Positions 34,554-36,924 of a stretch of 64,000 nt of DNA are shown here, in pieces (the first letter of the stretch is position 1; each line of letters starts with the position of its first letter). Under the pieces are notes generated by a model that saw only the letters and a program-made list of their open reading frames with translations, had not been told where the DNA came from and made no database searches. Origin of the DNA: the human T2T-CHM13v2.0 reference genome, Homo sapiens; the NCBI RefSeq assembly GCF_009914755.1, contig NC_060932.1; one strand, given 5' to 3'. The translations under genes were made by a program, and so were the position numbers.

Positions 34554-35290
34554 AGTCAGGGCAAAGGAAAAGTGAGGGTAAAAAAAATAATACCCAAATA
34601 CATGTCATAGGCTCTGTGTAATGACTACAAGAGCATTACAACTGGATGTGTGCTTCCTGCCAGCCAAAACAAAGGCAAAAATTAGTATAGTAGTCACAGT
34701 ATCCATGAAATAAAAATTTACCTGCTTCCCAGGAGATTCAGAGCTTGCCTTATACCCAAATCTGAGAAGTGTTTCTTAGGAGGTTCCACAGAGAGGTATT
34801 ATATGCCTAGCCAATTAACACCCTCCATGACATCCCTGCTGCACAGGCAGAGGATGGCATAGGCCTTTTTCTTTTCGCATCCCTCAGTGTTGCTTAGGCA
34901 ACTCCCTGATGGTCTCATTGACTGAGCAAGGGATGGACAGCTCCTCTTTTTAAAATGTTTTGTAGAAATGGGATCTTGCTATGTTGCCCTGGCTGGTCTC
35001 AAACTCCTGATCTCAAGCGATCCTCCTGCCTTGGCCTCCCAAAGCACTGGGGCTACAGGTGTGAGCCACCATGCCCAGCAAACAGCTCCTTTTTGAGGCA
35101 ATATTCCACAAATGTTATTTCTTCCTTGTGGACTTTTGATGAGAATTGGGCTAGCCTGGAGTATGCCCTGGGAATACACCTTAAGTCTTACTAGAAACAA
35201 TATCAGTTAAATATGCATCTCCTCATGTGATAAAACCTTAAACTCTATAGTGCTGTTTCAGGTTTTTGTGTGAACAAATTATAGTAATTT
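34554..35290 (+). repeat. Long inverted repeat, left arm (contains a FLAM at 34945-35079, minus strand)
   Basis: Reverse complement aligns end to end with 35878-36924. Confidence 0.95.
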
Positions 35291-35291
35291 C

Positions 35292-35363
35292 ATTTCCGTG
35301 TCATCAAGAGTGTCACACAGAGACTGTGAGAAATGATTGTGACACTCTTGATGGCATGGAAAT
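35292..35363 (+). other. 72-nt stem-loop (26-bp stem, 20-nt loop), pre-miRNA-sized
   Basis: atttccgtgtcatcaagagtgtcaca pairs with tgtgacactcttgatggcatggaaat; both non-Watson-Crick positions are G:U on the plus strand; expression unknown. Confidence 0.8.
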
Positions 35364-35608
35364 CACTACCAACCCAAGAAACAACGCACATCTTTATGCT
35401 CTTTGAGTCGCACCCATTCCTAGAGGTTCCACTTCACAGCAGAGTCTGAAAACACAGATTTCTATTGGCCCAGGGTTTCAGGAAGAATCCCCCAAGCAAA
35501 CAGCCCAGGGCCCTGAAAAGAGTTAGGAAATGTTTTCAGTAGTGACAGCATTTGACAGCTCAGATCCCCACATTAACTGTCACCAAGACAGAGACATAAA
35601 TATTCAAC

Positions 35609-35752
35609 TGGCCTGCCGCAGCAGCTCACACTTGAAATCTCAGCACTTTGGAAGGACGAGGTGGGAAGATTGCTTGAGCCTCGAAATTCAAGACCAGCCT
35701 GGGCAACAGAGTGAGACCCCTATCTCTACAAAAAATACAAAGAAAAAGAAAT
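35609..35752 (+). mobile_element. FLAM/Alu monomer in the inverted-repeat spacer
   Basis: Left-arm Alu consensus with A tail. Confidence 0.85.
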
Positions 35753-35877
35753 AATGTTCAACTAAATGCAAAGCAAACTAATCAACGTGTTAATAGAAGT
35801 GTGGCCTTTACTCCTTTTGACAAAAGGAAGAAAGGACTCTGCTGTCCAGATAATGTGGTCCCGTCTCCTTGTTGACC

Positions 35878-36924
35878 AAATTACTATAATTTTTTCACCC
35901 AAAAACCTGAAACAGCACTATAGAGTTTAAGTTTTTATCACACGAGGAGATACATATCTAATTGATATTGTGCCTACTTATACTTAGAGTGTAGTCCCAG
36001 GGCATATTCCAGGCTAGCCCAATTCTCATCAAAAGTCCACAAGGAAGAAATAACATTTGTGGAATATTGCCTCAAAAAGGAGCTGTTTGCTGGGCATGGT
36101 GGCTCACACCTGTAACCCCAGTGCTTTGGGAGGCCAAGGCAGGAGGATCGCTTGAGACCAGGAGTTTGAGACCAGCCAGAGAAACATAGTGAGATCCCAT
36201 TTTTACAAAAAATTTTAAAAAGGGGAGCTGTCCGGCCGGGTGCGGTGGCTCACGCCTGTAATCCCAGCACTTTGGGAGGCCGAGGTGGGCAGATCGTGAG
36301 GTCAGGAGATCGAGACCATCCTGATTAACACAGTGAAACCCCGTCTCTACTCAAAATACAAAAATTAGCCAGGTGTGGTGGTGGGCGCCTGTAGTCCCAG
36401 CTACTTGGGAGGCTGAGGCGGGAGAATGGCGTGAACCCAGGAGGCGGAACTTGCAGTGAGCCGAGATCACGCCACTGCACTCCAGCCTGGGCGACAGAGT
36501 GAGACTCCATCTCAAAAAAAAAAGGGGGAGGATAGGGGGAGCTGTCCATCCCTTACTCAGTCAATGAGACCATCAGGGAGTTGCCTAAGCAACACTGAGG
36601 GATGCAAAAAGAAACAGGCCTATGACATCCTCTTTGCCTGTGCAGCAGGGATGTCATGGAGAGTGTTAATCGGCCAGGCATATAATACCTCTCTGTGGAA
36701 CCTCCTAAGAAACTCTTCTCAGATCTGGGTATAAGACAAGCTCTGAATCTCCTAGGAAGCAGGTAAATTTTTATTTTATGGATACTACTGTACTAATTTT
36801 TGCCTTTGTTTTGGCTAGCAGGAAGCACACATCCAGTTGTAATGCTCTTGAAGTCATTACACAGAGCCTATGACATGTATATGGGTATTATTTTTTTTAC
36901 CCTCACTTTTCCTTCACCCTGACT
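35878..36924 (-). repeat. Long inverted repeat, right arm (FLAM 36088-36221; interrupted by AluY)
   Basis: Reverse complement of 34554-35290 once the AluY and one TSD are removed. Confidence 0.95.
36234..36523 (+). mobile_element. AluY-type SINE
   Basis: CpG-rich; gagatcgagaccatcctg and ggagaatggcgtgaaccc; TSD ggggagctgtcc. Confidence 0.95.

What the first reader, a model, noticed from the sequence alone, without database searches (positions are those of the whole stretch)
34554..36924. Long inverted duplication of mostly unique sequence: possible hairpin-RNA locus or inversion substrate
Arms 34554-35290 and 35878-36924 (about 735 bp each without the AluY) are reverse complements at roughly 90% by eye around a 587-bp spacer. 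Apart from one FLAM, the arms are not transposon sequence I recognise. Read-through on either strand would give about 700 bp of dsRNA, a known substrate class for ADAR, Dicer (endo-siRNA) and dsRNA sensors. At the DNA level, recombination between the arms could invert the spacer.
Basis: partly seen in the sequence, partly recalled or inferred. Interest (0 to 1): 0.75.

Follow-up and report, generated by a model that had tools for sequence, protein, structure and literature searches.

The report
Old inverted duplication in lncRNA intron
A stretch of about 735 bases of otherwise single-copy human DNA was copied in reverse next to itself roughly 20-30 million years ago inside an intron of a non-coding gene; it could fold into a long RNA hairpin, but nothing in the sequence suggests it is more than a decaying relic.

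Summary
Arms 34554-35290 and 35878-36924 are reverse complements: 731 aligned bases, 43 differences (94.1% identity). There are three indels, one of them a 314-base Alu insertion with a 12-base target-site duplication. The local score is 910 against at most 29 in 50 shuffles.

The non-Alu arm sequence has only these two copies in the T2T genome. It is therefore a local inverted duplication, not a transposon family. Both arms carry the same free Alu monomer with its own flanking repeats, so an already Alu-bearing segment was copied.

Divergence of 4.5-6.2% suggests an origin about 20-30 million years ago. This uses recalled mutation rates and no outgroup.

The repeat lies in intron 2 of LINC02209 and ends 106 bases before exon 3. 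In silico, either strand forms about 700 arm-to-arm pairs.

I found no sign of selection for pairing: G:U wobbles are 9 versus 19 on the two strands, p=0.087. I found no second genomic copy that could act as a target.

The most likely reading is a neutral relic of replication template switching. It would at most be passively edited by ADAR as nuclear intronic dsRNA. Expression, editing, small RNAs and spacer orientation could not be tested here.

The parts
34554..35290 (.). Left arm of the inverted duplication (737 nt)
   Evidence: 94.1% identical to the reverse complement of the right arm; its non-Alu parts occur only here and in the right arm in the T2T genome.
35878..36924 (.). Right arm (1047 nt, or 733 nt without the later Alu insertion)
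34950..35080 (-). Free Alu monomer inside the left arm, with the flanking direct repeat AAAAAGGAGCTGT / AAAAAGAGGAGCTGT
   Evidence: RF00017 Alu-domain match at 34963-35079, minus strand, E 8e-8. (flanks). Its divergence between the arms is 8/131, the same as the non-Alu part at 35/600.
36089..36221 (+). The same Alu monomer in the right arm, copied with the arm
   Evidence: 36089-36205, plus strand, E 2e-8; the 5' flank is identical to that of the left-arm copy.
36234..36547 (+). Dimeric Alu inserted into the right arm after the duplication. The body and A-tail run to about 36524, and the second copy of the 12-nt target-site duplication is at 36536-36547.
   Evidence: two Alu-domain matches at 36235-36349 and 36368-36515. 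(GGGGAGCTGTCC at 36222-36233 and 36536-36547; 14 CpG retained). It is absent from the left arm.
35291..35877 (.). 587-nt spacer. It is single-copy apart from an independent Alu monomer at 35624-35741 (+).
   Evidence: only self-matches in the genome. (the spacer monomer is only 76% identical to the arm monomer). (non-Alu spacer is not homologous to the arm, z 0.15 and -0.59).
35292..35363 (+). Small near-perfect hairpin directly abutting the inner end of the left arm. It is a nested inverted copy whose right half runs into a 9-nt word (35364-35372) resembling the first 9 nt of the right arm.
   Evidence: -41.5 kcal/mol, z -7.3, 0 of 200 shuffles as stable; minus strand -38.2, z -4.9. (an 8/9 word shared by the two junctions, reached in 45 of 5000 shuffles). 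(no Rfam family near its gathering score).
37031..38450 (+). Context: last exon of LINC02209. Its acceptor site lies 106 nt after the right arm.
   Evidence: Annotation supplied with the finding. One search shows GT at 8168 and AG at 37029-37030.

Best explanation
This is a neutral, primate-lineage local inverted duplication. A segment of about 735 bp of single-copy intronic DNA, already carrying a free Alu monomer, was copied in reverse orientation about 0.6 kb away. The most likely cause is one replication error with serial template switches to the opposite strand (FoSTeS/MMBIR or template-switch-mutation type). The small 72-nt hairpin at the inner end of the left arm is a second, nested product or the seed of that event. 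The two copies have since drifted apart by 4.5-6.2%, and a dimeric Alu later landed in the right arm. When LINC02209 is transcribed, the intron can fold into a duplex of about 700 bp with roughly 6% mismatches. That duplex would be an opportunistic nuclear ADAR substrate and would be degraded with the intron. No dedicated function is inferred.

Shown: the structure, the copy number, the order of events (monomer, then duplication, then Alu) and the folding potential. Inferred: the mechanism of origin, the age, neutrality and passive editing.
For: The arms are 94.1% identical over 731 nt, far beyond chance. Only two copies exist in the genome. The same search does detect a repeat family at 76-84% identity in the left flank, with 1205 first-look candidates and 40 scored, so the negative result has some power.

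Both arms carry the same Alu monomer with the same flanks. It is diverged as much as the unique part, 6.1% against 5.8%. The ts:tv ratio is 28:15 and only 3 differences are in CpG context, which looks like ordinary decay. No target-site duplication flanks the whole structure, and there is no ORF or coding signal: the longest stop-to-stop frame is 99 aa and lies mostly in Alu.

There is no strand bias of G:U-preserving transitions, 9 against 19, p=0.087. The small hairpin abuts the arm end, and the two junctions share an 8/9 word.

Three papers fit the proposed origin. Template switching creates perfect inverted repeats in one step and made over 6,000 hairpins in primates (PMC10710096, abstract and passages). 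Inversion junctions form at short interrupted inverted repeats (PMC10766183, passages). Intronic dsRNAs are edited mainly in the nucleus and removed by splicing (PMC12695637, passage).
Against: Neutrality is inferred from one genome only. With no outgroup I cannot show that the arms decay at the neutral rate, nor which arm is the copy.

Differences between the arms are not evenly spread. Thirteen fall within 63 nt at 35174-35236, a density reached in 42 of 20000 random placements. Next to them is a 107-nt identical run, reached in 760 of 20000. This could reflect gene conversion or a local constraint that I cannot explain.

The link between the small hairpin and the large repeat rests on a post hoc 8/9-nt match (p about 0.009). 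The 505 nt between the hairpin and the right arm are not explained by a simple fold-back. Long duplexes this well paired are reported to be depleted even in pre-mRNA (PMC7006430, passages), so survival for more than 20 Myr is mildly unexpected, unless expression is very low.
Confidence: 0.7

Rival explanations
1. The structure is a passive but real ADAR substrate. The intronic hairpin is heavily A-to-I edited (an 'editing-enriched region') wherever LINC02209 is transcribed. Duplex formation or editing just upstream of the exon-3 acceptor could modulate splicing or nuclear retention of the lncRNA.
For: About 700 bp of predicted duplex forms on the sense strand. Both arms lie in one annotated intron, and the right arm ends 106 nt before the acceptor. 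The few expressed long near-perfect inverted duplicates in human introns are heavily edited, for example in a KLHDC1 intron (PMC7006430, passages).
Against: There are no expression or editing data for this locus. LINC02209 is named in only 2 papers of the library, both as a list item. Supplements of PMC7006430 and PMC11838218 gave no hit for coordinate strings that I derived from a recalled MIR3148 position, which is a weak test. A regulatory effect on splicing is pure inference.
Confidence: 0.35
2. The arms act as an inversion substrate. Non-allelic homologous recombination between them flips the 587-bp spacer, possibly recurrently, so both orientations exist among humans or apes.
For: Arm length of about 735 bp and identity of 94% fall at the lower edge of repeats known to mediate human polymorphic inversions (654 bp to 24.2 kb, more than 90% identity; PMC6748972, passage).
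Against: The longest uninterrupted identity is 107 nt, and the next longest runs are 50 and 42 nt. That is short for efficient homologous recombination, on recalled knowledge of minimal processing segments. The spacer contains no annotated exon or element, so a flip would have no obvious consequence. A search for 'chr8' in 12 of 18 supplementary files of PMC6748972 found nothing; 6 files were not searched. No haplotype data were available.
Confidence: 0.08
3. The locus is a dedicated hairpin-RNA (hpRNA / endo-siRNA) locus, like those of Drosophila testis or mouse oocytes. Dicer would cut the hairpin into siRNAs that silence a target.
For: It has a long inverted repeat of non-transposon sequence within a transcription unit.
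Against: No other locus in the genome shares homology with the arms at E up to 10, so there is no parent or target gene. Wobble-preserving changes are not enriched on either strand. Mammalian Dicer is adapted to miRNAs and handles long dsRNA poorly outside a truncated isoform (PMC11239679, abstract in search listing). That this isoform is rodent-specific is recalled, not checked.
Confidence: 0.04
4. The structure is a foldback or long-terminal-inverted-repeat DNA transposon, or another mobile element.
For: It has long terminal inverted repeats around a short unique core.
Against: There is a single locus in 3.1 Gb. No target-site duplication is present: the flanks are ...ACACTGTC and TCATTATT.... 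There is no transposase-like open frame. The arms contain a retroposed Alu monomer with its own flanking repeats.
Confidence: 0.02

Closest known systems
Long inverted duplicated sequences in human pre-mRNA (Barak et al. 2020, PMC7006430) and genome-wide predicted dsRNAs (dsRNAscan; Andrews and Bass, PMC11838218)
   Same: An intramolecular, intronic, several-hundred-bp duplex formed by two nearby reverse-complementary stretches. Such structures are mostly intronic or intergenic, are usually unexpressed or unedited, and are heavily edited when expressed.
   Different: Most catalogued long duplexes come from inverted Alu or LINE pairs. Here about 600 of 731 paired positions are single-copy sequence. 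Non-repetitive predicted dsRNAs are given as about 2 per Mb. At 94%, this one falls below the '>96% and >300 bp' class of 197 (Barak) or 2,018 (dsRNAscan) structures. I could not check whether this locus is in either resource.
Template-switch products: TSM hairpins (Loytynoja and Goldman 2017, PMC5453318; Monttinen et al. 2023, PMC10710096) and ODIRA/fold-back inversion junctions (PMC10766183)
   Same: A reverse-complement copy lies close to its source, and a short interrupted inverted repeat (72 nt in all) sits at the inner junction. The small hairpin looks like a classic TSM product.
   Different: Described TSMs are tens of bases long, whereas this arm is about 735 bp. ODIRA yields inverted triplications containing an origin. 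Here there is a simple two-copy structure with a 587-nt asymmetric spacer.
Inverted-repeat-mediated polymorphic inversions (InvFEST set; Giner-Delgado et al. 2019, PMC6748972)
   Same: Inverted repeats over 90% identical and at least 654 bp long flank a short unique segment.
   Different: No evidence that the spacer has ever flipped. Identity tracts are short (maximum 107 nt) and the spacer is tiny (587 bp).
hpRNA / hairpin endo-siRNA loci of Drosophila and mouse oocytes
   Same: An inverted duplication of non-transposon sequence inside a transcription unit gives a long hairpin.
   Different: Those loci derive from, and target, a gene elsewhere in the genome. This one has no homologue elsewhere, and no small-RNA evidence is available.

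Membership tests
Local inverted segmental duplication (interrupted long inverted repeat) | Two nearby stretches are reverse complements far beyond chance | tested here: met
   731 nt at 94.1% identity. Score 910 against at most 29 in 50 shuffles.
Local inverted segmental duplication (interrupted long inverted repeat) | Exactly two copies exist, so it is not a dispersed repeat family | tested here: met
   Searches find self plus partner only at E up to 10. Positive control: one search finds a 76-84% repeat family in the left flank.
Local inverted segmental duplication (interrupted long inverted repeat) | The copied segment carries older insertions at identical positions in both copies | tested here: met
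   The same Alu monomer with the same flanks is in both arms, with equal divergence.
Foldback / long-TIR DNA transposon | Target-site duplication and multiple genomic copies | tested here: not met
   No TSD and a single locus. No Dfam or RepeatMasker library was available.
hpRNA / endo-siRNA hairpin locus | Arms are homologous to a target or parent gene elsewhere | tested here: not met
   No other match in the genome.
hpRNA / endo-siRNA hairpin locus | Dicer-sized (21-23 nt) duplex small RNAs come from both arms | not testable with these tools
   No small-RNA data are held.
hpRNA / endo-siRNA hairpin locus | A long hairpin forms within a single transcript | tested here: inconclusive
   Predicted folding is met. 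Transcription is inferred only from the supplied annotation (intron 2 of LINC02209).
ADAR editing-enriched long dsRNA | An intramolecular duplex of several hundred bp | tested here: met
   695 (+) and 705 (-) arm-to-arm pairs in the MFE fold. This is in silico only.
ADAR editing-enriched long dsRNA | Clusters of A-to-G mismatches appear in RNA-seq | not testable with these tools
   No editing catalogue is held. Supplement searches by recalled coordinates were empty.
NAHR inversion substrate | Inverted repeats lie within the length and identity range of known inversion-mediating repeats | tested here: met
   About 735 bp at 94%, against a published range of 654 bp to 24.2 kb at over 90% identity.
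NAHR inversion substrate | Both orientations are observed among haplotypes or species | not testable with these tools
   Only one human assembly is held.
NAHR inversion substrate | Long tracts of uninterrupted identity are present | tested here: inconclusive
   The longest tract is 107 nt, then 50 and 42 nt. The threshold for human meiotic NAHR is recalled, not checked.
miRNA precursor (small hairpin 35292-35363) | A match to a curated miRNA family | tested here: not met
   The best matches are mir-2011 at 24.4 bits (gathering score 80) and mir-507 at 21.7 bits (gathering score 79).
miRNA precursor (small hairpin 35292-35363) | A stem of about 35 bp with an apical loop of at least 10 nt | tested here: not met
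   The stem is about 29 bp on the + strand and about 31 bp with bulges on the - strand. The 35-bp preference is as quoted in PMC10710096.

The most novel reading that the evidence does not exclude
The structure is a catarrhine-specific hairpin-RNA module in the last intron of LINC02209. The 700-bp duplex, and/or the 72-nt hairpin at its centre, would be processed into small RNAs or hyper-edited in the germline. Because it ends 106 nt before the exon-3 acceptor, it would control splicing or retention of the lncRNA. The uneven divergence (a 107-nt identical tract beside a 63-nt mutation cluster) would then reflect constraint or gene conversion that keeps part of the duplex intact.
Probability: 0.05. 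Interest if true: 0.6.

Novelty: new member of a known kind. Interest (0 to 1): 0.25.

Why it matters
If the ordinary reading is right, the locus is one more example of how replication template switching seeds long hairpin-capable structures in primate introns. It is also a clean, datable case: Alu monomer, then duplication, then Alu. That makes it useful as a test locus for rates of inverted-repeat decay and gene conversion.

It would matter more in two cases. The first is if the hairpin were expressed, because long, well-paired, mostly non-repeat duplexes are rare in human transcription units and are the class most relevant to ADAR and dsRNA-sensor biology. The second is if the spacer proved to flip between haplotypes. 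Nothing found here raises either possibility above a low prior.

Tried and rejected
1. The spacer as an older, degraded third copy of the arm. The spacer Alu monomer sits at roughly the collinear distance. However, non-Alu spacer against arm gives z 0.15 and -0.59 versus 200 dinucleotide shuffles each. The spacer monomer is only 76% identical to the arm monomer, against 82% to the left half of the later Alu. Rejected.

2. Extension of the small hairpin's homology deep into the arm. A gapped alignment suggested it, but it is not supported by the significance test. Only the 8/9-nt overlap is kept, as a weak lead.

3. A transposon reading. Rejected: see the rival explanations.

4. Strand-specific conservation of RNA pairing. 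G:U wobbles are 9 against 19, p=0.087. There is no support, and the slight excess is on the strand antisense to LINC02209.

5. Rfam. Only Alu-derived sub-threshold matches (SRP Alu domain, mir-1268, mir-3135, mir-1285, mir-1303) and nothing for the arms.

6. Literature on the locus. 'LINC02209' occurs in 2 papers, both as a list item. NR_024473 gave 0 papers. MIR3148 papers do not deal with this repeat. The alias LOC286135 that I tried was a guess from memory, and its hits are unrelated.

7. Supplement look-ups by coordinate strings. These returned no occurrences: PMC11838218 (its one held PDF has 11,065 characters of text, no tables) and PMC7006430. The strings came from a recalled hg19/hg38 position of MIR3148, so a miss means little.

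8. 'chr8' in the supplements of PMC6748972. None found in 12 of 18 files; 6 were not searched.

10. Not attempted: a genome-wide count of comparable non-repeat inverted repeats, Pfam scans of the short frames, and subfamily typing of the Alus.
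Full report
**Observation**

The inverted repeat is real and sits at the stated coordinates. The repeat finder lists four collinear inverted segments of 93-96% complementarity that tile 34554-35290 against 35878-36924, with 587 nt between the inner ends.

A gapped alignment gives 731 aligned positions and 43 differences: 28 transitions, 15 transversions, 3 in CpG context. That is p=5.9% and K2P 0.062. Three indels separate the blocks:
- 6 nt in the left arm
- 2 nt in the right arm
- 314 nt in the right arm

The 314-nt piece is a dimeric Alu followed by a second copy of the 12-nt word GGGGAGCTGTCC (36222-36233 and 36536-36547). 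This is a standard retroposition that occurred after the duplication.

The local alignment score of the left half against the reverse complement of the right half is 910. Fifty dinucleotide shuffles gave a mean of 24.1 and a maximum of 29. In the whole window, no other inverted pair of 120 nt or more within 5 kb is anything but an Alu-Alu pair at 73-85%.

**What the arms are made of**

Each arm holds one free Alu monomer. Rfam SRP Alu-domain matches lie at 34963-35079 on the minus strand and 36089-36205 on the plus strand. The monomer has the same A-rich flanking direct repeats in both arms.

The monomer differs between arms by 8 of 131 positions and the remaining sequence by 35 of 600. The monomer was therefore already in the segment when it was copied.

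The rest of the arm is single-copy:
- Whole-genome searches with 34554-34934 and 35081-35290 found only the query and its inverted partner at E up to 10.
- The spacer pieces 35291-35610 and 35746-35877 and the right flank 36925-37240 are also unique.
- The search can see old repeats. The left flank 34200-34553 gave 1205 first-look candidates, and 40 scored hits at 76-84% identity over 34216-34465. This looks to me like the 3' end of an old L1, a label recalled and not tested.

There is no target-site duplication around the whole structure. No frame is longer than 99 codons. It is therefore a local inverted duplication, not a mobile element. Repeats below about 75% identity cannot be excluded without a repeat library.

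**Order and age of events**

The order is Alu monomer insertion, then inverted duplication, then dimeric Alu insertion into the right arm.

Arm divergence is 6.2% (K2P). It is 4.5% if a dense cluster of 13 differences in 63 nt (35174-35236) is set aside. I assumed a neutral rate of about 1e-9 per site per year and noted a human-macaque divergence of about 6-7%; both figures are recalled. On that basis the duplication dates to roughly 20-30 million years ago, near the ape-Old World monkey split. Gene conversion would make it older.

The later Alu keeps 14 CpGs, which fits an insertion that is itself old. No outgroup genome was available, so neither the date nor the identity of the ancestral arm has been checked.

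**Uneven divergence**

The differences are not evenly spread. The 13-in-63 cluster is reached in 42 of 20000 random placements. The adjacent 107-nt identical run is reached in 760 of 20000. I have no tested explanation. A local complex mutation and a short gene-conversion tract are the obvious candidates.

**The inner junction**

Directly after the last base of the left arm lies a 72-nt hairpin (35292-35363) with a 25-29-bp stem whose only imperfections on the plus strand are G:U pairs. Its energy is -41.5 kcal/mol, z -7.3, with 0 of 200 shuffles as stable. The minus strand gives -38.2 kcal/mol, z -4.9. It is unique in the genome and matches no Rfam family near threshold.

The right half of the hairpin is followed by AAATCACTA (35364-35372). 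This resembles the first nine bases of the right arm, AAATTACTA (35878-35886). An 8/9 word anywhere in the two 25-nt junction neighbourhoods arose in 45 of 5000 shuffles.

One reading is that the large repeat originally ran straight through the small hairpin, giving a near-palindrome with a 20-nt loop, and that about 505 nt later came to lie between them. Another reading is that one stalled fork made two excursions onto the opposite strand from the same site.

Both readings fit published template-switch mechanisms:
- TSMs create perfect inverted repeats in a single step and produced over 6,000 hairpins in primates (PMC10710096, abstract and passages).
- Inversion junctions in the ODIRA model map to short interrupted inverted repeats (PMC10766183, passages).

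This part is inference. The 8/9 match was noticed post hoc. A deeper extension of the homology into the arm was not significant.

**RNA level**

By the supplied annotation the structure lies in intron 2 of LINC02209 (8168-37030). GT and AG are in place, and the right arm ends 106 nt before exon 3.

Folding all 2371 nt gives MFE -1539 kcal/mol on the plus strand and -1586 on the minus strand. Of 957 and 995 total pairs, 695 and 705 are arm-to-arm pairs, essentially all in the register of the DNA alignment. The potential for about 700 bp of dsRNA with roughly 6% mismatches is therefore real.

I looked for a footprint of selection on pairing. Each transition between arms keeps a G:U wobble on one strand and makes a C:A mismatch on the other. 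The split is 9 (plus, the LINC02209 sense strand) against 19 (minus), binomial p=0.087. That is no support, and the lean is to the antisense strand.

The hpRNA model also needs a target. The arms have no homologue anywhere else in the genome.

The papers I read say the following:
- Long well-paired duplexes are depleted even in pre-mRNA. Of 197 human structures over 300 bp and over 96% identity, only 20 are expressed above FPKM 0.01, and the better expressed ones are heavily edited (PMC7006430, passages).
- Non-repetitive predicted dsRNAs number about 2 per Mb. Only 2,018 of 5.1 million predictions are both long and over 96% paired, mostly inverted LINEs and 88% intergenic (PMC11838218, sections 9 and 10).
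- Intronic dsRNAs are removed by splicing and are non-immunogenic (PMC12695637, passage).

This locus therefore belongs to a known but uncommon class. At 94% it falls just outside the 'nearly perfect' set.

**DNA level**

Published NAHR inversions use inverted repeats of 654 bp to 24.2 kb at over 90% identity (PMC6748972, passage). The arms therefore sit at the lower edge of what is known to work. The longest identical tract is 107 nt, and the spacer carries no annotated feature. Spacer orientation in other haplotypes or apes could not be examined.

**Verdict**

The best explanation is a neutral relic of a replication template-switch duplication in the catarrhine lineage. At most it is passively edited as nuclear intronic dsRNA. 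My confidence is about 0.7.

The rivals, in order of likelihood:
- a real ADAR substrate with some effect on LINC02209 processing
- an NAHR inversion substrate
- a dedicated hpRNA locus
- a transposon

The decisive data are primate orthologues, long-read haplotypes, editing catalogues and small-RNA libraries. None of them were within reach of these tools.

Noticed in passing
window 35292-35363: A 72-nt near-perfect hairpin (-41.5 kcal/mol, z -7.3) lies exactly at the inner end of the left arm. It is single-copy, has no Rfam family, and its 29-bp stem is shorter than a canonical pri-miRNA stem. It looks like a template-switch-mutation product and lies in the sense orientation of the LINC02209 intron.
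   Followed up: partly
window 35174-35236 versus 35932-35994, and 35054-35160: The differences between the arms are clustered. Thirteen fall within 63 nt (reached in 42 of 20000 random placements), right next to a 107-nt tract with none (reached in 760 of 20000). A complex local mutation or patchy gene conversion could explain it; this is unexplained.
   Followed up: partly
window 37309-37378 and 37708-37777: An inverted Alu pair (70 nt, 89% complementary, 329 nt apart) lies inside the last exon of LINC02209 (pair I5; Alu matches). Unlike the intronic repeat, this duplex would stay in the mature lncRNA.
   Followed up: no
window 34216-34465: This is a member of a large dispersed repeat family, with 1205 first-look candidates and hits at 76-84% identity on many chromosomes. 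From memory it resembles the 3' end of an old L1. It ends about 90 nt before the left arm.
   Followed up: no
window 35624-35741: A third, independent free Alu monomer (+ strand) lies in the spacer. It is 76% identical to the arm monomer and 82% to the left half of the later Alu. The Rfam scan did not list it at E up to 1.
   Followed up: partly
window 36366-36417: The inserted Alu gives a sub-threshold match to the Alu-derived family mir-1268 (69.1 bits, gathering score 83). This is expected of Alu sequence and is not evidence of a miRNA gene.
   Followed up: no
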